Assembly: GCA_021772615.1 (NCBI GenBank)
Contig: JAJFLQ010000070.1
Span: 29,145 to 93,144 of the forward strand
DNA: 64,000 bases
Reading direction: 5' to 3'
Source of the DNA: Verrucomicrobiota bacterium
GTDB lineage: Bacteria > Verrucomicrobiota > Lentisphaeria > JABSQK01 > JAJFLO01
Positions 10,216 to 35,481 of this stretch are shown piece by piece. Position 1 is the stretch's first letter. Each line of letters opens with the position of its first letter. The notes under the pieces are model-generated. The model searched no databases. It was not told where the DNA came from and saw only the letters and a program-made list of their open reading frames with translations. The position numbers were made by a program, and so were the translations under genes.

Positions 10216-10263
10216 CATACATAACATCTCCATCACACGTTGCACCGATTATACGAGTTTATT

Positions 10264-13200
10264 ATGAACCGGTTTCCTCGGGAACCGGTTTTTTTATTTC
10301 GCAACATCAAGCCGTTGACCGCAGCGGTTCTGCTCTTGCTGGCAGCGTCGGGTCTTCGCGGCTATGGTGCGGTATCTACCCTGGTGTCGCGGGGTAGCGA
10401 CGGGCTGCCCGGAGTTGGGCATAGCGGACGCACCGATACCACGGCCGAAGGTATTGTTTACCGACGTGCGCACGTGGATGATAAGGGGGCTGTGTTCTTC
10501 CTGAGCCGTGCGCCGTTGGCGCCGGAGGACACAAACGGCGAAGTGAATGACCTGTATCGTTTTCGCGCCGCAACGGCTACCGTGATAGACTCACCTGTCG
10601 AAAGCGCATCTTTTCCCTCCGGGTGCACCGAGTTGTCGTCGGATATCTTCGATTTCGCAATATTCGGTGCATCGGACAATTGGTATGTCGCGCGGCAGAC
10701 ATCGCCGCTGCCTCCACCGCCTCCTCCTGAGTATCTGTTCTCCCTGACGATCGATGGGAGTAAGCGGGCGATTTTTTGCAGATCCGGCGTGAAACATATC
10801 GATTTTGCGAGTAGCGGAAATCTGGGCGTCTTTGATACGCAAATAGACGATTCGAGTATCCGCCATATTTGGCTGCACGAGGCGAATACGGATGGCGTTA
10901 CATCCATTACTGCAGATGCTGATGGAAACAGCTTCTGTCCTGTTATTTCTGATGACGGCAGTCATGTCTATTTCCTGTCCCAATCATCCAATCTGGCCGG
11001 CGCGCCCGGATTGCTGAAGTACGATGTGGCAGCGGATGTGACGACGTCTGTCGTATCGTTTCAAATCACGGAGCTGGACGCGGCTGTTGATGCGCCGCAT
11101 GTCAGTGAAAGCAGCGATGTCGTATGTTTTTCCTCGAAGAATACAGTCATCGTGAACAATGACACAAACGGAAAACGCGATGTGTTCGTATGCGATGCCG
11201 GCAATGTCGAGCGGATCACAGCGGACAATGGCGCACAGTCAAACGGCGATGACGATAGCCCTCGGCTGAGTCGTGACGGCCGTTATATCGTATTCAGATC
11301 GAATGCCGGTAACCTGATTCGTGACGGCGGTAACGGCCGCTATCAGATATACGTTCATGACCGATTCACACGGGTCATACAGTGTGTAAGCGTCACGAAC
11401 GATATCGCACCGGCGCTTGCAGATCGCGATTGTTACGCCCCCGAGATATCCCCGAACGGACGATATGTCACCTTTGTAACCGACGCCGTCAATCTTGCGG
11501 CACCGTACATGGCGGACGGACAGGTCAACGGTCATCAACAGGTTTATCTTGTTGACACCCGTCCGGCAGTCGCGGAGCATCACACGATCAGCGGTAGAAC
11601 GGGTAACGCGATCGAGTTCTACCTTCGCGGACAACATCCGGACGGACATGAATTGAGCTATGCGCTTCAATCGAGTCCATCTGATGGCGCTGTCAGGGAC
11701 AAAGACGGTACAGCGGTGGAAATCGGGATCCTTTTCGCGACCGATTCGTTCCCATGGTCGTACGAACCGAACAGTTCGTCAGTCTTGTCAGACTCGTTCG
11801 AGTTTCTGCTGCTATCGACAGATTCATTGCCTTCCCGTCCTGCTACCGTCAGCATGCGTTTGATCCCTACCGGCACGGGTTATATTCGACGCGTAAGTGT
11901 CAGTGAATCGGGTGGGGAGGGAACACAACATGCCTTCGATCGTACGGCACCAATTCCGTTGGGAAATGTGGATGTGAGTGACAGCGGGAATCGCATCGTC
12001 TTTGATTCTCGTTCAAGTGAATTGAATAGCGAGAATGTCAACACGAATTCTGATGTGTATGTGCATGACAGAATTGCAGGTCGTCTTTTTCAAATCAGTG
12101 CGATTCACGACCCGGCGAGCGGCATGGCGGCAATTTCAGGGGACGGAAGGTCTGTCGTCTATTTTACCGATGCTGGTCGACAATTGATCTGGCAGGCTGT
12201 GGCGTCGCGATCTGGTGTGGTGCTTGATACGTTCACTTTTCGCCCCGAGTCGGCGCCTGCCATATCTGATGATGGGACGCGCGTGGCGTTCCGTAACGGT
12301 GCCGCTCTGTATCTGTTCGACTTCAGCATCATGAATGCACCCGAGCTACTCATTGCGAATGGCGATGAACCCCAAATATCGGGCGATGGCAATGTAATAG
12401 CATACTCAAGCCTTGACGATGATATGATTCATTTGTTCTACGTAACTTCGCGAAGCTCGCCGTCGTTCTCAATTGCCGGCTCGGAGCCGCAACTCTCCGT
12501 AAGCGGAAGGTATCTGGCTTATCTTAATGAGAGCGGGCGGCCCGAAAGACGAAATCTTGTATCTGGAGAGGTCGTTGGTCCGGATGTTGGGGCGTCGACA
12601 AACACGTCGATTTCCGGCACTGGTCGTTTTGTTTACTACACTAAAGGAGGGCAGGGGTTTCGTTACGATGCTAATCTGGACATCGTTGAAGCCGTCAGCG
12701 CGACTGCGACCGAAGTTGGCGACGACACGACATTTGCCGGTGTCCTGTCCAGTTCCGGATCTGTCGCTGCGTTTGCGTCTGATGCCGGAAACTTGGTGAA
12801 CGGTGACGTGAATAATAAGCGTGATATATTTACAACAATTTTCCCATTGCCACAGAATTCATTGCCAGCCGCGGATGCACCGGATCTTATAGTGATGGAA
12901 GATTCAGAGTCGATATCAATTCCATTGAGCTATACCGATGCCGAGGGTGATGATGTCGAAACAATGGTTACAGAAGCTCCGTCACACGCGGGGATGTTTG
13001 TGCTCAGTCCGCCTGTATTCGGGTCCGCGTTCTGGACGGTTGCGTACAAGCCGGCGGCAGATTTTTTCGGAACGGATTCGTTTTCATATCGGCTTCGTGA
13101 TGGTTCCGGATTCTGGACAAAGTCGGCAAGCGTCGCGATTACGGTGACCAACGTCAACGACCAACCGTCGATCGACGCGATTGACGATATGACCGTCGTG

Positions 13201-14811
13201 GAGGGCGGCACGCTACGTTTCCCTGTGATAGCCACGGATCCGGATCTGGACGACCTGACATTTACGGTGACGTCAGGAGTCGGGTCGATCAGCGACGGCA
13301 TGTTCGTGTATGAGCCGATGCATGATGTGGTGAGCCATAACGGTGATCCGCCATATACCAGGGCGTTCTCGGTTTCCGTCATGGTAAGTGACGGTCTCCT
13401 TGACGACACGACAACCTTTACAGTTACTATCACCGATCAGGACCAGCCTCCGGTAATCGAGGGAGACGTGACCCTGGAGCCGTTGGCGCCGCGAACCAGC
13501 GACAACCTTACGGTTCGGGCGACGGCGGGTGATCCGGACGGTGATGCCGTTGCTCTGAGCTACGTATGGATGCGCGACGGTGATTCCGCGGGGTTACCTG
13601 ACTCTGATACCATCGTGTCAGATCTAACCGCGAAGAATCAGACATGGAGTGTCGCTGTAACGGCAACGGCCGGTAATGCATCAACGGTTGTCTCAGGCAA
13701 TGCTGTCACGATACAGAACACACCGCCTGTTGTGTCGTCGATGACCGTCACGGTTGCGGAGGACAGTACCGAGACAATCGACTTGATTGCGAGTGACGGC
13801 GATGCCGATTCGCCGCTGCGCTATACGGTTCTGAACGGGCCTGAGCACGGCAGGCTCGAGAACGCGCCGCCGTCTCTTGTCTATGTTCCTGATCCGGACT
13901 ACTTCGGCTCGGACGCATTTCGTGTGATTGCGAGTGATGATACCGATGATTCCGCCACAGCAACAATTACCATCAATGTGACGCCGCAACCGGACGCACC
14001 GGAATTGGTGGTGGAAGACCTTATCCTGCTGAGTGGTACACGAACCGCCACGGTGGGATTCTCGCAGTTGAAGGTTGAGGATGTGGACGAACCAGACGGC
14101 GTGGCGAACGCAGATGTAACCGTGATCATCAATCAGCTGCCTGTCATCGGAGGATTCACGCACGGCGGCAACCCCGTCAGTGCCGGCGAGCGGATCGTAC
14201 TTTCCGCGTTTCCAATTGTGTTCGTACTTGCGGATGCGCTTGAGGATGATGTGTTCGTGAGCGACAGTGCGGTACTGACCGTCGAGCACCGTGATGATCC
14301 TGAAGGTGTTGCTTCCATGCCGGTGGAAATGGGCATTTACGTGGGTGCCGATGAGATCTCCATTGCCCTCAAGCGCGGGTGGAATTTGATATCCTTCCAG
14401 CACCCGCCGTTGAATCGTAGTTCGAGCGATTTACGCCTTGTTTCAGGTCGGGGGCTTGAACAGATGTGGTGCTGGGATCCGTTGCTGCAGCGGCTGCGGG
14501 CAATAACACAACTGCAACCGGCGAAGGCGAAAGGGTACTGGCTGTTTGCTCTGGAGGATGACGTTATTGCGAACTTGCCGGTCGGCGTTAGGGACAACGG
14601 CATGGTCGCCATCGAGCCATTGTGGAATCTTGTCGGGCCCGTTGGCGCTGGTGAGTCCGTGGCCGTGCCCGCAGAAGTGGGCGGTTTCGCGTGGTCATGG
14701 CGGGGCGATAAAAACGGATTCATCTACACCGATGCAATGCAAGAAGGCGAGGGCTACTGGCTATTTTTCGAAGCCGATGGGACGTCCCAGGTTGACCTTG
14801 GACTCGAGTAA
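10264..14811 (+). CDS. Large secreted protein (~1516 aa): signal peptide, >=12 TolB-like PD40 beta-propeller repeats, cadherin-like VNDQP repeats, tandem C-terminal GW/W.WD/GYWLF/VDL module.
   Basis: MNRFPREPVFLFRNIKPLTAAVLLLLAASG signal. Repeats such as ISDDGSHVYFLSQSSNLAG, LSRDGRYIVFRSNAGNLI, ISPNGRYVTFVTDAVNLA. VTNVNDQPSIDAIDD. C-terminal GWNLISF ... MWCWD ... KGYWLFA ... LWNLVGP ... FAWSWRG ... GYWLFFEADGTSQVDLGLE. Alternative upstream start at 10240. Confidence 0.85.
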   Translation: MNRFPREPVFLFRNIKPLTAAVLLLLAASGLRGYGAVSTLVSRGSDGLPGVGHSGRTDTTAEGIVYRRAHVDDKGAVFFLSRAPLAPEDTNGEVNDLYRFRAATATVIDSPVESASFPSGCTELSSDIFDFAIFGASDNWYVARQTSPLPPPPPPEYLFSLTIDGSKRAIFCRSGVKHIDFASSGNLGVFDTQIDDSSIRHIWLHEANTDGVTSITADADGNSFCPVISDDGSHVYFLSQSSNLAGAPGLLKYDVAADVTTSVVSFQITELDAAVDAPHVSESSDVVCFSSKNTVIVNNDTNGKRDVFVCDAGNVERITADNGAQSNGDDDSPRLSRDGRYIVFRSNAGNLIRDGGNGRYQIYVHDRFTRVIQCVSVTNDIAPALADRDCYAPEISPNGRYVTFVTDAVNLAAPYMADGQVNGHQQVYLVDTRPAVAEHHTISGRTGNAIEFYLRGQHPDGHELSYALQSSPSDGAVRDKDGTAVEIGILFATDSFPWSYEPNSSSVLSDSFEFLLLSTDSLPSRPATVSMRLIPTGTGYIRRVSVSESGGEGTQHAFDRTAPIPLGNVDVSDSGNRIVFDSRSSELNSENVNTNSDVYVHDRIAGRLFQISAIHDPASGMAAISGDGRSVVYFTDAGRQLIWQAVASRSGVVLDTFTFRPESAPAISDDGTRVAFRNGAALYLFDFSIMNAPELLIANGDEPQISGDGNVIAYSSLDDDMIHLFYVTSRSSPSFSIAGSEPQLSVSGRYLAYLNESGRPERRNLVSGEVVGPDVGASTNTSISGTGRFVYYTKGGQGFRYDANLDIVEAVSATATEVGDDTTFAGVLSSSGSVAAFASDAGNLVNGDVNNKRDIFTTIFPLPQNSLPAADAPDLIVMEDSESISIPLSYTDAEGDDVETMVTEAPSHAGMFVLSPPVFGSAFWTVAYKPAADFFGTDSFSYRLRDGSGFWTKSASVAITVTNVNDQPSIDAIDDMTVVEGGTLRFPVIATDPDLDDLTFTVTSGVGSISDGMFVYEPMHDVVSHNGDPPYTRAFSVSVMVSDGLLDDTTTFTVTITDQDQPPVIEGDVTLEPLAPRTSDNLTVRATAGDPDGDAVALSYVWMRDGDSAGLPDSDTIVSDLTAKNQTWSVAVTATAGNASTVVSGNAVTIQNTPPVVSSMTVTVAEDSTETIDLIASDGDADSPLRYTVLNGPEHGRLENAPPSLVYVPDPDYFGSDAFRVIASDDTDDSATATITINVTPQPDAPELVVEDLILLSGTRTATVGFSQLKVEDVDEPDGVANADVTVIINQLPVIGGFTHGGNPVSAGERIVLSAFPIVFVLADALEDDVFVSDSAVLTVEHRDDPEGVASMPVEMGIYVGADEISIALKRGWNLISFQHPPLNRSSSDLRLVSGRGLEQMWCWDPLLQRLRAITQLQPAKAKGYWLFALEDDVIANLPVGVRDNGMVAIEPLWNLVGPVGAGESVAVPAEVGGFAWSWRGDKNGFIYTDAMQEGEGYWLFFEADGTSQVDLGLE

Positions 14812-14867
14812 TTTACGGGCAGATCCTTGATGATTGGTTTGAGGGGAAATGATTCCATAAACCAATG

Positions 14868-15057
14868 TCGAAGAGGGTGTGAAAAATCTTGCTACGGCCA
14901 TTTACAGAACTGGAGAGGGTCTCGCACAAAGACACCAAGTCACAAGGAAGAAAGTTTGATCACGTCCGTGTCGAAGACCTTTGCGCCTTTGCGTGCGACG
15001 ATAAGTTTTGCTACGGCCACTGTATTGGAGAGGGTGTCGCGCAAAGGCGCAAAGAAA
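14868..15057. repeat. Non-coding degenerate direct repeats (~46 nt, two copies, plus shorter GTCGAAGA / GAGGGTGT motif copies) with an embedded perfect 15-nt inverted repeat.
   Basis: Copy 1 at 14889-14934 (ttgctacggccatttacagaactggagagggtctcgcacaaagac). Copy 2 at 15008-15054 (ttgctacggccactgtattggagagggtgtcgcgcaaaggcgcaaag). Inverted repeat ctttgcgcctttgcg (14979-14993) / cgcaaaggcgcaaag (15040-15054). Confidence 0.6.
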
Positions 15058-15245
15058 AATGGGATGGTTTTGTAACCCACATTTCCACACCCTAATATTC
15101 GGTGTGCCGGATAATTCTGGCCCTCAAGACTTGATCTCTCGCTGAAAACACAGCGGCGCACGGAGGATAAGCTACAAATATTGTCTTTCTCCCGATGCCC
15201 AGCGTTCTCAGCGAGAGCGACAGTCGTCTTATGCTCGATACGGAA

Positions 15246-15515
15246 TTACTTACCGGATATCGCGCCGTGCGTCCGAAACGAGCGGGTTGGAGAAAACTCT
15301 CCCAGCCGATGACCAACCATGTTCTCGGTGACAAACACCTGTATGAATGTTCGACCGTTGTGGACCTGGAAGGTGTGCCCAACGAAATCCGGCATGATCA
15401 TTGAACGCCGCGACCATGTCTTGATTGGTCGCTTTTCTCCACGTGCGTCGAGCCGACGAACTTTCTTCATCACATGCTCGTCGTAGAACGGTCCCTTTTT
15501 GACAGATCTGCCCAT
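15246..15515 (-). CDS. rpsS: 30S ribosomal protein S19.
   Basis: [19 protein letters not shown] ... [27 protein letters not shown] ... [17 protein letters not shown] matches the S19 hallmarks. Start is the internal Met of ORF 15246..15644, 1 nt after the rplB stop. Confidence 0.93.
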
Positions 15516-15516
15516 G

Positions 15517-16347
15517 CTATTTCTTTCTCCGTTCGATAATGAATTTATTGGACGTCTTGCGTTTATTCCGGGTGCGATAGCCTTTTGCAAGCTGCCCCCA
15601 GGGAGATACAGGATGACTGCCGCCACTTGACCGGCCCTCACCACCGCCCATTGGGTGGTCGACTGGATTCATCGCCACACCACGCGTCGTCGGACGGACA
15701 CCGAGATACCGCTTCTTGCCGGCCTTGCCAAGCGATATTTTCATGTGCTCGCCGTTACCGACCTGCCCTATTGTCGCCATGCATTTCACATGAATCTGGC
15801 GAATCTCCCCGCTTGGCAGACGCACCTGAGCGTATTTTCCTTCCTTGGCGCGAATGATGGCCTGCTGGCCGGCGGCCCGAACCAAAGCGCCGCCCTTTCC
15901 GGGAGTCAGTTCGATATTGTGGATGGCTATGCCCGGCGGAATCTTGCCTAGCGGCAAGGCGTTGCCAACCTTGAATGGTGCGTCGGCCTCGCTGCTTACG
16001 ATCGTCATTCCTACGGTTAGTCCGTTGGGGGCAAGAATATACAGTTTCTCACCATCAAGATAATGGAGCAACGCGATATTGGCACTGCGATTGGGATCGT
16101 ATTCGATTGCTGCGACTTTTGCCGGAATATCGAATTTCTTGCGCTTAAAGTCGATCTGGCGATACGAGCGCTTTACGCCGCCACCGCGATGACGCACCGT
16201 CATTTTTCCCTGGTTATTGCGGCCGCCGGTAGATTTCTTTCCTCTTACCAGACGCTTTTCCGGTGTCGCACGAGTAAGCTCGGCAAAGCCGGATACCGTC
16301 ATGTGCCGCCGGGACGGTGTGGTTGGTTTATATTGCTTTAACGCCAT
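15517..16347 (-). CDS. rplB: 50S ribosomal protein L2.
   Basis: [18 protein letters not shown] ... conserved L2 sequence, 276 aa. Confidence 0.97.
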
Positions 16348-16416
16348 GATATCCCCTGTGTCGGTTCAAAAGTCTAGATGCGTTCATGCCGTGTCGGCCT
16401 GGACGCACAAGGATTG

Positions 16417-16698
16417 CTAGAATAAGTCGATCGCCTCTTCGCCGTCACGCAATGTGACAATTGCCTTCTTCCAATCGGCGCGCTTGCCGACACCATAACG
16501 ATTTCGTTTCGTCTTGCCCTTGCAGTTAATGATGTTGACAGACTTGACGTGTCGGTCGAACAACTTATGAACCGCGAACTTGACATCGTATTTGTTGGCT
16601 CGACGATGGATGATAAATGTGTACTGATTGTGTTCGATCAATTCGTTGCTTTTCTCGGTCATCGCGACCGTATTTATAATCTGATAAGGATCATTCAT
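16417..16698 (-). CDS. rplW: 50S ribosomal protein L23.
   Basis: 93 aa at the correct operon position between L4 and L2. KLFDRHVKSVNIINCKGKTKR is L23-like. Confidence 0.9.
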   Translation of the reverse strand: MNDPYQIINTVAMTEKSNELIEHNQYTFIIHRRANKYDVKFAVHKLFDRHVKSVNIINCKGKTKRNRYGVGKRADWKKAIVTLRDGEEAIDLF

Positions 16699-16819
16699 TT
16701 TATGTTGTCACTCCGCTCAATGATTCGCCAACCGGCGTGTCTTTCCGTGTCTCGCATTGTCCCTGGAATAATAATGATTGTCAGGTCTGCGATCGCGTGA
16801 TCTTGCGTTCGAGAACAGC

Positions 16820-17800
16820 CTATGTCAGCCTGCTGCCAAATATATCGAGTGCGTCCTTTGTGAATATGATGCGGTCGTACAACAGAATTTGGTATACATT
16901 TGCACAATTGGCCTGGATAAGCTCCACATAAGGTAAATTTGAGGCGGCCAGGATGACATTAACATTTTCGTAGTCCTTCACGACAACAAGGCAGTGTTCG
17001 CCGGCGCCGACCGTGTCAAGGTACTGTACCATCTTCTTCGTCTTTGGTTCACTCAACAGGATCGTATCGGCAATGATGACCGCTTCTTCATCAATCTTCG
17101 AAGTGAATGCGCGGCGCAACGCCAGTTGCCGCACCTTCTTGTTGGTCTTCTTACTGTAATCCCGTGGCGACGGACCGAATGCTACACCGCCGCCGCGCCA
17201 GATTGGACTTTTTCGTGATCCTGCGCGGGCACGACCGGTGCCTTTTTGCCGCCATGGTTTGGCGCCAGAGCCGCGAACACGAGCACGGTTTTTGGTGGCC
17301 GCCGTTCCTTCGCGCTGGCCAGCCAAGTATGCTACGACAGTGTCATGGACAGCCTGTTTGCCGCGGCATCTTTCGATCCAGGTGACGTCAATGTCATAGT
17401 CACCCACTTTCTTACCATTGGTGTCGATGATAGGAAGTGTTACCGGGACGTTGTCATCTGCGTCTTGGTCTATCGCTGGAAGAGAACCTGTCTCTTCGTC
17501 CGTCACGACAGTGTCGGCAACGTGTTCGACGGCAGTTATGTCGGCCGCCATCGCGGCGTCAGCTACGTCCACGTCATCCGTCTCTGCGTCAACTTCCGCC
17601 ACTGCCAGGTCGGGCGTGTCCGCATTCTCAGGCTCAGTCCCAGTAGCGGCGATGGCTTCCTCAGACTTGGCATTGTCGGACGCCTTCGCTTCTTTGGACG
17701 CAACGTCGGCGTCGACAGGCATTTCGTGTGCTGATTCAGTTACCGCGTCGTCTGCAACAGCGGGTTCCTCAGATTCATTCTTAAATTCTTTATCCGCCAC
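16820..17800 (-). CDS. rplD: 50S ribosomal protein L4 with a ~115-aa acidic low-complexity N-terminal extension.
   Basis: L4 core (PIIDTNGKKVGDYDIDVTWIE ... ARVRGSGAKPWRQKGTGRARAGSRKSPIWRGGGVAFGP ...) preceded by a D/E/A-rich segment. Only 77 nt separate this ORF start from rplC. Confidence 0.88.
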   Translation of the reverse strand: MADKEFKNESEEPAVADDAVTESAHEMPVDADVASKEAKASDNAKSEEAIAATGTEPENADTPDLAVAEVDAETDDVDVADAAMAADITAVEHVADTVVTDEETGSLPAIDQDADDNVPVTLPIIDTNGKKVGDYDIDVTWIERCRGKQAVHDTVVAYLAGQREGTAATKNRARVRGSGAKPWRQKGTGRARAGSRKSPIWRGGGVAFGPSPRDYSKKTNKKVRQLALRRAFTSKIDEEAVIIADTILLSEPKTKKMVQYLDTVGAGEHCLVVVKDYENVNVILAASNLPYVELIQANCANVYQILLYDRIIFTKDALDIFGSRLT

Positions 17801-17877
17801 GGGATACAGGTCCTTCGATTATAGGTGATCGCGTTATGAACGGTTTACGTCGTTTGCGCCTGTGTGTGTCTACAGTG

Positions 17878-18510
17878 TTATTTTTTTCTGGCTTGTCTAA
17901 TAATGATCCAACCGCCGTTCGGTCCAGGGACCGCCCCTTTAATAAGCAACGCGTTGTCTTCTTTCCGAACTTGGACTACCTGCAAGTTTTGTACGGTTTT
18001 ACGACGGTTCCCCATTTGCCCCGGCATCTTGCGTCCCCGATAAACCTTCCCGGGCGACTCACACATACCGATCGAACCACCGCGGCGTTCCCAGTCTCCA
18101 CCGTGGCTCGCGCGTCCACCGCGAAAACCGTAGCGCTTAATGACGCCCTGAAACCCGCGACCCTTAGTGGTTCCGACGACATCGATAAAGTCGCCTTGCT
18201 GAAATATATCCGCGGCCAAAGTGGATCCAACCGCTTCAGATGGATCGTCTGTGAGGCGGATCTCCCGGACCCAGGCGGGGCCGGCCTTGGTATAGGCAGC
18301 CGGCTTGAACTGTTCGCGCTGTGGCTTGTTGATGCGTTCCAATCGTCGTTCGCCGTAACCCAACTGCACGGCCGAATATCCGTCGACTTCCTGCGTTCGG
18401 TTTGCAATGACAGTGCAGGGACCAGCTTCCACGACGGTGACAGGGATCATTCGCCCGTTGTCATCGTATATGTGCGTCATTCCGACTTTTTTTCCCAGTA
18501 ATCCCTTCAT
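17878..18510 (-). CDS. rplC: 50S ribosomal protein L3.
   Basis: MKGLLGKKVGMTHIYDDNGRMIPVTVVEAGPC ... 210 aa. Confidence 0.96.
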   Translation of the reverse strand: MKGLLGKKVGMTHIYDDNGRMIPVTVVEAGPCTVIANRTQEVDGYSAVQLGYGERRLERINKPQREQFKPAAYTKAGPAWVREIRLTDDPSEAVGSTLAADIFQQGDFIDVVGTTKGRGFQGVIKRYGFRGGRASHGGDWERRGGSIGMCESPGKVYRGRKMPGQMGNRRKTVQNLQVVQVRKEDNALLIKGAVPGPNGGWIIIRQARKK

Positions 18511-18600
18511 AGTCTACCGCTCACAATATCTCTTTAGGTTAATTTGAACTGCCGTCAACCGGGCCGCGCCTGGCGGACGGCATCAACGACGCGTCGTCAG

Positions 18601-18909
18601 TCAGATTTTTATGCTAATGTCAACGCCGGCAGGTAGGTTGAGTTTCTTCAAGTCATCTACGGTTTTTGCTGTTGGATCGATAATATCCAACAAGCGTTTG
18701 TGCGTTCGAATTTCAAATTGCTCCATCGACTTTTTGTCAACAAACGGCGAACGATTCACCGTGTAACGCTCGATACGGGTCGGGAGCGGAATGGGCCCGG
18801 CAACACGCGCACCTGTGCGACGCGCTGTATTTACGATTTCACCTGCGGACTTGTCAAGGACCCGATGGTCATATGCCTGAAGCCGTATGCGTATAGTCTG
18901 TTTGCTCAT
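18601..18909 (-). CDS. rpsJ: 30S ribosomal protein S10.
   Basis: [21 protein letters not shown] ... 102 aa. Confidence 0.96.
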
Positions 18910-18922
18910 GATTGATCTCAGC

Positions 18923-21025
18923 TTATTTCTTCAAAACGTTTTTTTCAAGTTGCTCGGGTAACGGCTCGAAGTGCGACGGTTCCATCGAGTTGGATGCTCG
19001 GCCCCGGGTGAGTGAACGCAGTGCGGTGGTATATCCAAATAGCTCGGATAGTGGCACCTGTGCGTGTATCCTGACGAAATCCGGTTGCGCATCAACCTCG
19101 ACAATGTAGCCGCGCCGACTGGATACGTCGCCGATGACATCGCCCATATGCTCTTCCGGGGTTGTGATCTCAAGTTTCATAATTGGCTCCAGAAGCACCA
19201 GGCCAGCCTTCTTGGCCGCTTCCTTGAATGCCATGGAGGCAGCGATCTTAAACGCGATTTCCGACGAATCCACCGCGTGATACGAGCCATCGAGTATGTC
19301 GATGTGCAGGTCCACAACCGGATATCCAGCGAGCACGCCGGTCGTGGCAGCTTCGCGCAGTCCTGTTTCGACGGGACGAATATATTCTTTAGGTATATTA
19401 CCGCCCGTTACCTTATTATCTATCGTAATGCCATGTCCCGTATCTCTCGGTTCCATGGCAATGATGACATGGCCATATTGACCGCGGCCACCAGTCTGCC
19501 GTATAAATTTTGAGTCGGCTGTCGCGATTTTTGTAATCGCCTCGCGATAGGCGACTTCGGGTGCTCCTGTATTGGCCGCGACTTTGAACTCACGCAACAG
19601 GCGATCGCGAATAATTTCAAGATGCAACTCACCCATTCCGGATATGATACTTTGTCCTGTCTCCGGGTCCGTTCTCATCTGAAACGTTGGATCTTCTTCA
19701 GCGAGCTGATTCACGGCTTCATAAAGTTTATCCCGCTCCGCTGCAGTCTTGGGCTCGATTGCAATGGATATCACCGGATCGGGAAAGCTCATGGATTCGA
19801 GTACGATCGGGTGGGCAATGTCGCTGAGTGTATCGCCCGTTGTAATCGTTTTAATACCTACTGCCGCTGCGATATCGCCACTGTACACACTGTCCCGTTC
19901 CTCCCGGGTGTTGGCATGCATCTGGAGGATGCGCCCAATACGTTCGTTCTTTCCGGTGCGTGGATTGAATACCCTCATTCCCTTGCGTAGAACACCTGAG
20001 TAAACCCGAAAGAAAACCAGTTTGCCGACAAAGGGATCGATCATCAGCTTGAATGCCAGCGCCGCAAATGGCTCATCGTCGCCGACCATGCGCGTAATAC
20101 GTTCCTCCGAATTCAGTCGAAAACCTTCGATGGCTTTGACATCGGAAGGGCAGGGGAGATAGTCATTTACCGCGTCAAGGAGATTTTGCACGCCTTTGTT
20201 CTTAAAGGCTGTACCACAAAAAACCGGTACGATCGTTGCTGTTATGACACACCGGCGAACCGCCTGCCGGAGGTGTTCTGCAGTTGGCCGCACATCACCA
20301 AGAAACATCTCCATAATTTCTTCGTCAATCTCAGCCAGGCACTCGATGATATGCGCTCGTGCGCTGTGTACATCGTTCTGCATGGCTTCGGGAACGTCCT
20401 TTTCCACGACTTCGGTGCCAAGCTCACCCTGGTAATAATACGCCCGGTTGGAAATCACATCAACAACGCCGCTGAAGTCACCTTCACATCCAATGGGCAA
20501 CTGCAATGGAATAGCGGTTGCGCGCAGTTTGTCGCGGATGCTTTGGACAGCGGCAGTAAAATTGGCCCCGGTTCGGTCCATCTTGTTGATGAATGCGATA
20601 ACCGGCACCTGGTATTTTTTAGCCTGACGCCAGACCGTCTCCGACTGCGGCTGCACGCCGGCCACGCCGCAGAAGACGGCAACGGCACCATCCAGAACGC
20701 GGAGCGAGCGTTCCACTTCGGCGGTAAAGTCAACGTGCCCCGGCGTATCAATGATGTTTATCTGGTGTTCTTGCCAGAAACATGTCGTTGCGGCGCTGGT
20801 GATTGTGATGCCGCGTTCCTGTTCCTGCACCATCCAATCCATCGTTGCATTGCCTTCGTGCACTTCACCGACTTTGTAGTTCACACCAGTGTAATACAGG
20901 ATGCGTTCTGTAATGGTCGTCTTGCCTGCGTCGATGTGAGCCATGATCCCGATATTCCGCACCTGCTCAATTGGAACAGCCCGGCTCGGATGCGGGTTGT
21001 TCTGCTGTGCTTTGTTCGACTCCAT
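18923..21025 (-). CDS. fusA: Elongation factor G.
   Basis: [42 protein letters not shown] ... full-length EF-G. The ORF extends to 21067; the Met at 21025 (MESNKAQQ ...) fits EF-G length better. The start is ambiguous between the two. Confidence 0.95.
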
Positions 21026-21252
21026 AGTGATCCTGGCGCAATCGGTTGTGCTTGCCAATCCTGTCATAATACCTGTTTACTGCGTGCTGTTCGCTGGTTA
21101 AAATAGAAATAATGAATTGTGCAGAATGCGTGGACACGACCTTGCGGAAATGATCTCGCAGTCGGTGGTGCGGCAGGAAAGACGGTTGTAGCCTATTATG
21201 AGCGACGACCCTCCGGCGCGTTAGCATACCACGCGAATATCGCCGATATCAC

Positions 21253-21723
21253 TCACCAACGATAATGAGCGAAAGCCTTATTGGCTTGTGCCATCTTGTG
21301 AGTGTCGTCCTTCTTCTTTACGGCTGAGCCGGTATTGTTGTAGGCGTCCAATATTTCAGCTGCTAGCGCATCTCGCATGGATTTACCTTTTCTTCCGCGA
21401 GCATAGGTCACCATCCAACGCAATCCGATGCCGATCTGACGTGACGTTTCAAGCTCGATCGGAATCTGGTAGTTCGCTCCACCGACACGTCGACTTTTCA
21501 ACTCAAGCAAGGGCTTTACATTGTCTAGCGCCTGCATAAATACCTCAAGCGGGTCACGACCTTCCTGCTTGTCGGCAATTATCCCCATCGCGCCGTAGAC
21601 TATATTCTGTGCTCGGGATTTCTTTCCGCGTTCCAAAACGATGTTGATTAACTTGGCAACCAACTCGCTATTGTATTTTACGTCCGGTGTCAGCTGCCGG
21701 CGTTCCGCCCGTCGTCGTCTCAT
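21253..21723 (-). CDS. rpsG: 30S ribosomal protein S7.
   Basis: [36 protein letters not shown] ... 156 aa. Confidence 0.96.
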
Positions 21724-21759
21724 TCTTTATCGCCTGTCTGTATTATAATAAATCGCCGG

Positions 21760-22131
21760 TTAACTGGCACGTTTTGTGCCGTATTTGGAACGGCCCTGCT
21801 TTCTATTGTCCACGCCGAGACTATCCAATGCACCACGAATAATGTGGTACCGTACGCCCGGCAGGTCAGGTACGCGTCCGCCACGTACCAGAACGATTGA
21901 GTGCTCCTGGAGGTTGTGTCCCTCTCCGCCTATGTATGCGGTGACCTCTTCGCCGTTGCTCAGGCGTACACGAGCTACTTTGCGCAACGCTGAATTCGGC
22001 TTCTTGGGTGTTCTGGTAGTAACCTGGAGACATACCCCACGTCGCTGCGGACACCGGGCCAAGGCGCGTGATTTACTTTTGAATTTCTTTCTCTTGCGAC
22101 CCTTGCGGACCAACTGATTGATGGTGGGCAT
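21760..22131 (-). CDS. rpsL: 30S ribosomal protein S12.
   Basis: [57 protein letters not shown] ... 123 aa. Confidence 0.97.
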
Positions 22132-30554: not shown

Positions 30555-30795
30555 AGTCCACCCTAAGCATTTGATAAGCAGAGCTGCTTAATTTCGTTGT
30601 AAAAAGCCGACAACCGGCAGGTGTCGGGTTCGTCAATTGACGGGAATAAGGGAAAAAGCAAAGGGCGAACGGAAGGTCCGTTCGCCTCGATATATTACCG
30701 GTGTGACAACTCTTTCGGTCTCAGTTGCGACCGGGTATGACCCCGCCGCAACGTGCGTCTCTTGTTGGTAATCTGGCGCGTGAATGCGTCGCTTC

Positions 30796-34284: not shown

Positions 34285-35481
34285 CTATTCGATGATGTCC
34301 GTGACGCGACCTGCACCGACAGTGCGACCACCTTCACGTATCGCGAAGCGCAAGGTTTTCTCCATCGCAATAGGGGCAATCAGCTCCACGTCAAGCGCGA
34401 CGTTGTCGCCTGGCATGACCATTTCCGTGCCCTCCGGCAGGGATGCGACGCCGGTCACATCAGTTGTGCGAAAATAGAACTGCGGCCGATAGCCATTGAA
34501 AAACGGCGTGTGCCTGCCGCCTTCCTCTTTGCTGAGAACATACACCTCGCCCTTGAATTTGGTGTGCGGCGTGATTGTGCCGGGCTTGGCGAGTACCTGC
34601 CCGCGCTCGACGTCGTCTTTTTTCGTTCCACGCAACAGGCAGCCTATGTTGTCTCCCGCCTCGCCGCGGTCAAGGATCTTGCGGAACATTTCAACGCCGG
34701 TGACGGTGGTTTTCTTCGTGTTGTGTATGCCCACGATTTCGACTTCTTCGCCGGTTTTGATAATACCGCGCTCACAGCGTCCGGTGACGACCGTTCCGCG
34801 TCCCTCGATTGAGAATACATCCTCGATCGGCATGAGAAATGCCTTGTCCAAATCGCGGACCGGTTCGGGAATGTACTCATCGACAGCCGACATGAGGTCG
34901 ACAATAGCCTTGCAATTCTCATGGGTGGCATCGCCTCCCGCTTCCATTGCTTTCAAGGCAGATCCGAATATAATAGGAATGTCGTCGCCGGGGAACTCAT
35001 ATTTCGACAGCAACTCGCGAACTTCGAGTTCGACTAACTCAAGCAGCTCGTCATCGTCTACCTGGTCGACTTTGTTTACAAAAACAACCATTGCCGGTAC
35101 GCCGACCTGACGAGCGAGGAGAATGTGTTCGCGCGTTTGTGCCATGGGGCCGTCGGTGGCCGCGATCACCAGGATGGCGCCGTCCATTTGGGCGGCACCG
35201 GTAATCATGTTCTTCACATAGTCAGCGTGGCCCGGACAGTCGACATGCGCGTAGTGACGTTTCTCCGTCTGGTACTCTACGTGTGCTGTATTGATGGTAA
35301 TACCGCGTTCGCGCTCTTCCGGTGCGTTGTCGATTTCGGCATATGATTTCGCATCGCCGCCGAATGATTGGGAAAGCGTCATGGTGATAGCGGCTGTCAA
35401 TGTGGTCTTGCCGTGATCGACGTGGCCAATCGTGCCGATATTCAAGTGCGGTTTGTTGCGTTCAAAAACTGCTTTAGCCAT
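34285..35481 (-). CDS. tuf: Elongation factor Tu.
   Basis: [33 protein letters not shown] ... 398 aa full-length EF-Tu. Confidence 0.98.

What the first reader, a model, noticed from the sequence alone, without database searches (positions are those of the whole stretch)
14812..15245. S10 ribosomal-protein operon ends abruptly after rpsS at a repeat-rich junction with the adhesin locus
On the minus strand the order rpsJ-rplC-rplD-rplW-rplB-rpsS is intact. No rplV/rpsC/rplP follows: the next 430 bp hold no L22-like ORF on either strand, and then the convergent 1516-aa surface-protein gene begins. The junction carries the direct and inverted repeats at 14868-15057 and two further inverted repeats (attggttt/aaaccaat at 14833-14866; tctctcgctga/tcagcgagaga around 15135-15218). 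This looks like a rearrangement or insertion breakpoint inside the normally highly conserved S10-spc superoperon.
Basis: partly seen in the sequence, partly recalled or inferred. Interest (0 to 1): 0.5.

Follow-up and report, generated by a model that had tools for sequence, protein, structure and literature searches.

The report
Ancient S10 operon split in Lentisphaerae
The ribosomal-protein operon really does stop after rpsS here, but this is an old gene-order trait shared by the whole Lentisphaerae lineage rather than a recent rearrangement or assembly error, and the junction repeats are local hairpins between two converging genes.

Summary
On the minus strand, rpsL-rpsG-fusA-rpsJ-rplC-rplD-rplW-rplB-rpsS ends at 15246. 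A 434-bp spacer with no L22 remnant follows, then the 3' end of a convergent ~1520-aa surface-protein gene. The interpretation needs changing. The window comes from a Lentisphaerae bacterium. Every Lentisphaerae-type locus I could fetch with at least 600 nt after rpsS (19 here, plus two isolate genomes) also stops at rpsS. All 121 loci from other lineages have rplV 27-208 nt downstream (903 nt in one locus, where a gene is inserted). In Lentisphaerae, rplV heads a separate rplV...secY cluster; in Victivallis sp. Marseille-Q1083 it lies about 0.66 Mb away on the other strand. That cluster always begins with an uncharacterised coiled-coil gene, "X". In the sister clade, X sits between rpsS and rplV in an unbroken cluster, so the break most likely happened at the rpsS|X joint in the Lentisphaerae ancestor. 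The junction repeats are real but local: a ~110-nt imperfect tandem duplication and three stable hairpins. They have no copies elsewhere, no Rfam or protein homology and no compositional shift. They are best read as 3'-end structures of two convergent transcription units. Interest is modest.

The parts
15246..15515 (-). rpsS (ribosomal protein S19, 89 aa), the last gene of the truncated str-S10' transcription unit
   Evidence: Pfam PF00203, E 1e-37. The TAA stop is at 15246-15248.
15517..22131 (-). rpsL-rpsG-fusA-rpsJ-rplC-rplD-rplW-rplB, the part of the cluster upstream of rpsS, in canonical order
   Evidence: ORFs. Pfam confirms L2, L23 and L4. tblastn map.
14812..15245 (.). 434-bp spacer between the convergent rpsS and surface-protein genes. 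It holds no L22 remnant, no conserved ORF and no known RNA family.
   Evidence: proteins. (Rfam: only chance-level snoRNA hits, E 2.4-8.7). (no tRNA).
15136..15217 (-). Long imperfect hairpin that starts 29 nt after the rpsS stop codon. It is the candidate 3'-end or terminator structure of the r-protein transcript, but it lacks a U tract.
   Evidence: -46.5 kcal/mol, z -5.1, 0 of 200 shuffles as stable. Inverted repeat I2. No consensus terminator was called in the spacer.
14975..15058 (.). Central hairpin: a 19-20-bp stem built on CTTTGCGCCTTTGCG / CGCAAAGGCGCAAAG, with a ~46-nt loop.
   Evidence: -32.9 kcal/mol (minus strand, z -4.65) and -37.4 kcal/mol (plus strand, z -3.66). Inverted repeat I1. 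Each arm is itself a 2 x 8-nt tandem.
14833..14866 (+). Small hairpin 22 nt after the surface-protein stop codon (ATTGGTTT...AAACCAAT)
   Evidence: -15.8 kcal/mol, z -3.3 on the plus strand. Inverted repeat I5.
14866..15085 (.). Imperfect tandem duplication. Unit A is 14866-14968 and unit B is 14969-~15085; both start with TGTCGAAGA. Column identity is 76%. Unit B carries a 16-nt insert that forms the left arm of the central hairpin.
   Evidence: Alignment A1. Direct-repeat families D1-D3. The motifs are unique to this spot in the window.
10240..14811 (+). Convergent gene for a large surface or adhesin-like protein (Big_9, cadherin-like and PD40 domains)

Best explanation
The 434-bp region is the natural 3' boundary of a shortened str-S10' transcription unit (rpsL...rpsS) in a Lentisphaerae genome.

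In this whole lineage the S10 operon is split between rpsS and rplV. rplV-rpsC-rplP-rpmC-rpsQ and the spc genes through secY form a separate cluster elsewhere on the chromosome. That cluster is led by a lineage-specific gene, X. X encodes a signal peptide or membrane anchor, a long coiled coil and a small C-terminal beta-barrel.

In the sister clade the cluster is unbroken, but X lies between rpsS and rplV. The most parsimonious history (inferred) has three steps:
1. X was inserted between rpsS and rplV.
2. The cluster broke at the rpsS|X joint in the Lentisphaerae ancestor.
3. Each half then acquired its own ends: terminators after rpsS and a promoter ahead of X.

In this window, the repeats in the spacer are a local ~110-nt tandem duplication plus three stable hairpins. 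Most likely (inferred) these hairpins end or stabilise the two converging transcripts. They are not scars of the ancient break.
For: Shown by tool results:
1. The window's closest relatives are Lentisphaeria MAGs, and the window nests inside the clade of split loci. That clade has 200/200 bootstrap support in a neighbour-joining tree of six concatenated r-proteins.
2. rplV is absent downstream of rpsS in 13 of 13 Lentisphaerae-type genome loci with at least 1.5 kb of downstream sequence, in 1 further genome locus (L010) with 688 nt, and in 5 metagenome loci. It is also absent in Victivallis sp. Marseille-Q1083 and in the complete genome of Lentisphaerota bacterium ZTH.
3. All 64 + 57 loci from other lineages have rplV 27-208 nt after rpsS, or 903 nt in L016 where X is inserted.
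4. Five Lentisphaerae-type contigs show X-rplV-...-secY with unrelated genes upstream. In Victivallis the two halves lie on the same 3.88-Mb contig, ~0.66 Mb apart and on opposite strands.
5. X proteins are mutually homologous. They are found only directly upstream of rplV (gaps of 12-63 nt) and never after rpsS in split loci or in the window.
6. L016 and L087 have rpsS-X-rplV in an intact cluster and are sister to the split clade with 200/200 support.
7. Textbook hairpin-plus-U-tract terminators follow rpsS in at least 8 relatives and in both isolate genomes, so rpsS is a real transcription-unit end in the lineage.
8. In the window the hairpins are significantly stable. The repeats are unique to the spacer and absent from 169 related loci. 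GC content is flat across the junction.
Against: - The rest of this genome is not available, so the X-rplV cluster of this organism was not located.
- The window's hairpin after rpsS has no U tract, although the same window has a canonical terminator between rplL and rpoB. Its role as a terminator is therefore only inferred.
- No relative closer than 79% L2 identity exists in the collections, so conservation of the spacer structures could not be tested.
- The order of events (X insertion before the break) rests on parsimony and on a distance tree of six proteins.
- The taxonomic identity of the sister contigs L016 and L087 is unknown beyond the label 'Verrucomicrobiota'.
Confidence: 0.82

Rival explanations
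1. A recent, genome-specific rearrangement or insertion. Under this reading the adhesin locus was inserted into an intact S10 operon of this organism, and the repeats are the scar.
For: The spacer does contain significant direct and inverted repeats. The genes flanking rpsS differ among relatives, so the region downstream of rpsS has been reshuffled repeatedly. The present neighbour may therefore be a recent arrival.
Against: The break after rpsS is shared by all Lentisphaerae-type loci and by both isolate genomes. There is no compositional step at the junction. There is no tRNA, integrase or transposase at the border. There is no L22 remnant. The repeats have no second site in the window or in 169 loci.
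Confidence: 0.06
2. An assembly chimera: two unrelated contigs were joined at a repeat.
For: None specific. Repeats can cause mis-joins, and read data are not available.
Against: The same gene-order break occurs in about 20 independent assemblies, including a complete genome. The repeats are short (at most 36 nt ungapped) and unique in the window. GC content is uniform.
Confidence: 0.02
3. The repeat block 14866-15085 is a copy (or two copies) of a dispersed element such as a MITE or REP-like sequence, or it is a small-RNA gene. Under this reading it has a function of its own or a role in a later local rearrangement.
For: There are two ~55-nt units of conserved sequence and a very stable hairpin. 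The overall fold z-score is about -3 to -3.6.
Against: There are no further copies in 64 kb or in 169 related loci. No Rfam family matches above chance. No promoter-like site lies in the spacer. The only candidate terminal inverted repeat (12 nt, one mismatch, I3) is at chance level by my estimate (~0.5 expected), and I see no target-site duplication.
Confidence: 0.1
4. The spacer encodes a small protein, for example the 73-aa ORF at 14940-15161 on the minus strand.
For: That ORF's codon-usage score (0.084 per codon) falls in the low tail of real genes, whose 5th percentile is 0.053.
Against: It has no Pfam or NCBIfam match. It has no hit at E <= 0.001 among 1.84 billion representative proteins. 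It starts with GTG and spans the hairpin. The other spacer ORFs score at or below 0.001.
Confidence: 0.03

Closest known systems
[quoted passage not shown]
   Same: The window keeps tuf/secE-nusG-rplKAJL-rpoBC-str and the first six S10 genes in canonical order on one strand.
   Different: The last five S10 genes and the spc genes are detached. The unit ends at rpsS.
Evolutionary rearrangements of the r-protein operon cluster catalogued in Gammaproteobacteria and Bacilli (Brandis 2021, PMC8046335: 115 rearrangements, 65% of them between operons; small gene insertions such as tusDCB, bfd-bfr, nrdHEF)
   Same: It is the same kind of event: a small insertion (X) into the cluster, followed by loss of concatenation and fixed in a clade.
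   Different: The break is inside the S10 operon, not between operons. It is fixed across a phylum-level lineage (Lentisphaerota). I found no paper that describes it.
Rho-independent (intrinsic) terminators
   Same: A stable GC-containing stem-loop lies shortly after the stop codon of the last gene. Relatives have textbook examples at the same place.
   Different: The window's hairpin is long (82 nt) and imperfect, and no U tract follows it.
FlgT and the N-terminal beta-barrel of F1-ATPase alpha/beta subunits (fold resemblance of the X C-terminal domain only)
   Different: There is no sequence-family membership: no Pfam hit, and only a sub-threshold MreC hit in NCBIfam. The architecture differs (signal peptide plus coiled coil), and so does the genomic context (head of an r-protein operon).

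Membership tests
Canonical S10 operon | rpsJ-rplC-rplD-rplW-rplB-rpsS in this order on one strand | tested here: met
Canonical S10 operon | rplV-rpsC-rplP-rpmC-rpsQ follow rpsS directly (27-208 nt in 120 of 121 control loci) | tested here: not met
   No tblastn hit anywhere in the window. No Pfam hit in the spacer ORFs. Control loci.
Canonical S10 operon | Concatenation with the spc operon (rplN...secY) | tested here: not met
Lentisphaerae-type split cluster (defined here) | The unit ends at rpsS and the next gene is non-ribosomal | tested here: met
Lentisphaerae-type split cluster (defined here) | The genome belongs to the clade in which all members show the split | tested here: met
   Nearest relatives are Lentisphaeria MAGs. 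Clade support is 200/200.
Lentisphaerae-type split cluster (defined here) | A separate X-rplV...secY cluster elsewhere in the same genome | not testable with these tools
   Only 64 kb of this genome is available. The exact rpsS product is not on record in the assembly index. No relative above 79% L2 identity was found.
Rho-independent terminator (hairpin 15136-15217) | Stable stem-loop just downstream of the last gene | tested here: met
   -46.5 kcal/mol, z -5.1
Rho-independent terminator (hairpin 15136-15217) | A run of U immediately 3' of the stem | tested here: not met
   The tail is AUCAAGUCUUGAGG. The consensus scan finds nothing in the spacer.
Dispersed repeat / MITE | Multiple copies in the genome | tested here: inconclusive
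   There are no other copies in 64 kb or in 169 related loci. The rest of the genome is unavailable.
Dispersed repeat / MITE | Terminal inverted repeats flanked by a target-site duplication | tested here: not met
   Only a 12-nt inverted repeat with one mismatch (I3), at chance level by my estimate. No duplication is visible in the sequence.
Recently acquired genomic island (adhesin locus) | Compositional deviation, with an integrase, transposase or tRNA at the border | tested here: not met
   GC is 0.51-0.56 on both sides. The nearest tRNAs are at 33.8 and 35.6 kb. The flanking ORFs tested show adhesin or OMP domains or no domain.
MreC (for protein X) | Match to the MreC family model above its threshold | tested here: not met
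   No Pfam hit. NCBIfam NF010518 scores 16 bits against a cut-off of 385. Fold searches point to F1-N/FlgT-type barrels instead.

The most novel reading that the evidence does not exclude
The break was made possible by an earlier capture of gene X between rpsS and rplV. X is a previously undescribed secreted or membrane-anchored protein with a coiled coil and a beta-barrel. It is now the conserved first gene of the rplV...secY operon throughout Lentisphaerae. It is still embedded between rpsS and rplV in sister Verrucomicrobiota lineages, possibly including Akkermansiaceae. On this reading, X brought or evolved an internal promoter that let the downstream half survive separation. Its tight, long-lived co-transcription with ribosomal genes would also hint at a growth-coupled envelope function.
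Probability: 0.4. Interest if true: 0.4.

Novelty: new member of a known kind. Interest (0 to 1): 0.25.

Why it matters
The S10-spc cluster is among the most conserved gene orders in bacteria. A break inside the S10 operon that is fixed across a phylum-level lineage, with the intermediate state (a gene inserted at the future breakpoint) preserved in the sister clade, is a clean natural example of how such operons come apart.

It has practical uses. rpsS|rplV non-adjacency and the X-rplV adjacency are simple synteny markers for assigning or checking Lentisphaerae bins. Two contigs labelled Paceibacterota and Kiritimatiellota carry the marker and fall inside the clade. It also warns annotators and scanners not to flag this junction as a misassembly.

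It does not change our understanding of ribosome biology. The split implies that rplV...rpsQ are transcribed independently of rpsJ...rpsS in these bacteria, which remains to be shown experimentally.

Tried and rejected
- **Exact look-up of the window's S19 in the assembly index:** not on record, so the source genome could not be retrieved.
- **Scans of genome contigs and metagenome contigs with L2:** no relative above 79% identity, so comparative analysis of the spacer was impossible.
- **blastn-short of the spacer against 169 loci:** only chance hits of 14-17 nt.
- **Rfam:** no hits in the spacer at gathering thresholds (the only two matches in the window are distant tRNAs) and only snoRNA noise at E 2-9 when the thresholds were relaxed.
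- **tRNA/tmRNA scan:** nothing near the junction.
- **TRF:** it called only the two 8-nt doublets, not the ~110-nt duplication.
- **Promoter and terminator consensus scan of the spacer:** nothing found.
- **Pfam and NCBIfam on the spacer ORFs, and a full HMMER search of the 73-aa ORF:** nothing found.
- **MITE reading:** rejected, because the 12-nt 'terminal' inverted repeat is at chance level and there is no target-site duplication.
- **A dif or terminus reading of the GC-skew flip at ~15 kb:** considered and not supported. The flip coincides with the switch of coding strand, and skew elsewhere in the window is noisy.
- **Literature searches for a description of the Lentisphaerae split:** nothing found.
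- **Naming X:** Pfam, NCBIfam and PDB sequence searches gave only coiled-coil noise and a sub-threshold MreC hit. The afdb50 fold library was unavailable.
- **Taxon names for L016 and L087 through cluster members:** none were available.

Full report
**1. What is in the sequence**

The minus strand of the window carries a long transcription/translation supercluster. In order it reads: tRNA-Thr, tuf, tRNA-Trp, nusG-rplK-rplA-rplJ-rplL, rpoB, rpoC, rpsL, rpsG, fusA, rpsJ, rplC, rplD, rplW, rplB and rpsS. Pfam confirms S19, L2, L23 and L4.

rpsS ends with TAA at 15246-15248. The next 434 bp (14812-15245) are non-coding by every test I could apply:
- tblastn with L22, S3, L16, L29, S17 and the spc proteins finds nothing anywhere in the 64 kb.
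- The spacer ORFs have no Pfam or NCBIfam match.
- Their codon usage is mostly non-coding-like.
- The one borderline ORF (73 aa) has no homologue among 1.84 billion representative proteins.

At 14811 a plus-strand gene for a ~1520-aa Big_9/cadherin/PD40 surface protein ends, convergent with rpsS.

**2. The repeats**

Aligning 14860-14972 with 14963-15090 shows that the 'direct repeats' are two units of an imperfect tandem duplication of about 105-120 nt. Both units begin with TGTCGAAGA and share 76% column identity. Unit B carries a 16-nt insert, CCTTTGCG x 2. This insert is the inverted copy of GCGCAAAG x 2 further on in the same unit, and the pair creates a 19-20-bp stem.

Three hairpins are significantly more stable than shuffled sequence:
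- 15136-15217 on the minus strand, starting 29 nt after the rpsS stop: -46.5 kcal/mol, z -5.1.
- The central hairpin at 14975-15058: z -4.65 on the minus strand and -3.66 on the plus strand.
- 14833-14866 on the plus strand, 22 nt after the surface-protein stop: z -3.3.

The direct repeat beats 300 of 300 shuffles, and the perfect 15-mer inverted repeat beats 295 of 300.

The motifs occur nowhere else in the window. They have no similarity in 169 related loci, match no Rfam family and contain no promoter-like or consensus terminator site. GC content is 0.51-0.56 on both sides of the junction.

**3. Who the organism is, and what its relatives do**

A scan of one genome per GTDB species with the window's L2 returned Lentisphaeria/Lentisphaerae MAGs as nearest relatives, at 77% identity at best. 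A metagenome scan reached 79%. I mapped 28 cluster genes on all loci by tblastn. The query set detects Lentisphaerae L22...SecY at 33-64% identity, so sensitivity is adequate.

The results were:
- rplV follows rpsS within 27-208 nt in 63 of 64 non-Lentisphaerae genome loci and in 57 of 57 such metagenome loci.
- The 64th genome locus (L016) has rplV 903 nt downstream.
- None of the 13 Lentisphaerae-type genome loci with at least 1.5 kb downstream has rplV within up to 9.7 kb.
- The same holds for L010 (688 nt available) and for five metagenome loci.

A neighbour-joining tree of six concatenated r-proteins (945 columns) puts all split loci, including the window, in one clade with 200/200 bootstrap replicates. 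Two isolate genomes agree. Victivallis sp. Marseille-Q1083 and the complete genome of Lentisphaerota bacterium ZTH both have ...rplB-rpsS followed by unrelated genes.

The genes downstream of rpsS differ from locus to locus and lie on either strand. The break is therefore old, and its downstream flank has been reshuffled since.

**4. Where the other half is**

I searched with an L22 from L016 and looked up the contigs that encode Lentisphaerae-labelled hits. In Victivallis sp. Marseille-Q1083, Lentisphaerae bacterium GWF2_52_8, a Lentisphaeria MAG and two further large contigs, rplV heads a separate cluster. Its order is rplV-rpsC-rplP-rpmC-rpsQ-rplN-rplX-rplE-rpsN-rpsH-rplF-rplR-rpsE-rplO-secY, and the genes upstream are unrelated.

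In Victivallis both halves lie on the same 3.88-Mb contig. rpsS is at about 2.132 Mb on the plus strand and rplV at about 1.470 Mb on the minus strand, so they are roughly 0.66 Mb apart.

**5. The gene at the breakpoint**

In every one of these clusters an ORF of 240-300 aa without any Pfam family sits 12-63 nt upstream of rplV on the same strand. I call it X. The X proteins are mutually homologous. They share a hydrophobic N-terminus, a long coiled coil and a conserved ~70-aa C-terminal domain.

Two high-GC contigs (L016 and L087) keep the cluster unbroken but have X between rpsS and rplV, with gaps of 12-29 nt. In the tree they are the sister group of the split clade, with 200/200 support.

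An Akkermansiaceae MAG has a 243-aa ORF of the same architecture at the same place. Its sequence similarity to X is weak (blastp E 5e-7 against a database of six sequences; hhalign probability 17%), so homology there is only suggestive.

X homologues are never found after rpsS in split loci or in the window. The parsimonious reading (an inference) is that X entered between rpsS and rplV first. The cluster then broke at the rpsS|X joint in the Lentisphaerae ancestor, and X stayed with rplV.

An AlphaFold model of X (mean pLDDT 70; 75-88 in 10-residue blocks across the C-terminal domain) shows a small beta-barrel. It resembles the N-terminal barrel of F1-type ATPases and of FlgT. The function of X remains unknown.

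**6. How the junction most likely works**

Relatives show that rpsS is a real transcript end. Textbook GC-stem plus U-tract terminators lie within 150 nt of the rpsS stop in at least eight MAG loci and in both isolate genomes.

The window's genome can make such terminators, for example between rplL and rpoB at 30686-30664. After rpsS, however, it has a long imperfect hairpin without a U tract. I infer, but have not shown, the following:
- This hairpin and the central one stop or stabilise the r-protein transcript, possibly with Rho.
- The small hairpin at 14833-14866 does the same for the surface-protein transcript.
- Two opposed transcription units are thereby kept apart.

The tandem duplication and the inverted 16-nt insert look like ordinary local slippage or template-switch products in a spacer under weak constraint.

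**7. Comparison with what is known, and novelty**

[quoted passage not shown] Brandis (PMC8046335) reconstructed 115 rearrangements of it in Gammaproteobacteria and Bacilli. Of these, 65% fall between operons, and several began as small gene insertions.

The present case is the same kind of event, with three differences. It lies inside the S10 operon, it is fixed in a phylum-level lineage, and the intermediate state is preserved. E. coli-type L4 autoregulation of the S10 leader is largely confined to Gammaproteobacteria (PMC3616713, abstract seen). No known regulatory circuit is therefore obviously disrupted.

Four full-text searches found no description of the Lentisphaerae split. It is nevertheless plainly visible in annotated public genomes. 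I therefore class it as a new member of a known kind, not as a new kind of system.

**8. Verdict**

There is a real break in the canonical order, but it is ancestral and lineage-wide.
- The repeats are real, local and unconnected to the break as far as the evidence goes.
- Interest is modest (0.25). The most interesting loose end is gene X.

Noticed in passing
L081:9173-9988, L086:3852-4766, L088:5254-5982, L089:5145-5984, L016:4790-5632, L087:5130-5972, L171:3213-3944: There is an uncharacterised gene family 'X' (240-300 aa). It has a signal peptide or membrane anchor, a coiled coil, and a small C-terminal beta-barrel of the F1-ATPase-N/FlgT type. It has no Pfam family. It always lies directly upstream of rplV in Lentisphaerae. 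In two sister contigs it lies between rpsS and rplV, and an Akkermansiaceae MAG may have the same arrangement.
   Followed up: partly
window 17438-17800 (minus strand): Ribosomal protein L4 of this organism carries an acidic N-terminal extension of about 120 aa. The extension has strongly coding-like codon usage (0.325 per codon, against a coding mean of 0.205). It is absent from the L4 of two relatives, L002 (209 aa) and L090 (218 aa).
   Followed up: partly
L127 (metagenome contig Ga0302276_10007999), 1-8463: This high-GC (0.69) contig from a different lineage (62% L2 identity) also lacks rplV after rpsS. It lacks rplC between rpsJ and rplD as well. This may be an independent break at the same junction.
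   Followed up: no
L081:15751-17835, L083:15829-17906: In two of the three Lentisphaerae rplV clusters that extend past secY (L081 and L083), secY is followed by cmk. In the third (L085) it is followed by a Dus-family gene. None has adk-infA-rpmJ-rpsM, so the alpha-operon part is detached as well.
   Followed up: no
window ~15000: The sign of the GC skew flips at the junction: positive to the left and negative to the right, with a cumulative maximum at about 15 kb. The flip coincides with the switch of coding strand. Skew elsewhere in the window is noisy, so a link to replication is unresolved.
   Followed up: partly
window 30664-30686 (minus strand): A canonical terminator- or attenuator-like hairpin with a T-rich tail lies between rplL and rpoB, the classical rplL-rpoB attenuator position.
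   Followed up: no
L007 (JAIPIM010000135.1), L009 (JAUUYH010000006.1), L001 (JAJFLO010000274.1): Contigs labelled Candidatus Paceibacterota, Kiritimatiellota and 'Verrucomicrobia bacterium' fall inside the Lentisphaerae clade in the r-protein tree and carry the split. Their public taxon labels are probably wrong or outdated.
   Followed up: partly
window 18909-18923: fusA is followed directly by rpsJ, with no tuf between them. The only tuf in the window sits upstream of the tRNA-Trp/nusG/rplK block, at 34285-35481. The Lentisphaerae loci share this fusA-rpsJ adjacency.
   Followed up: no
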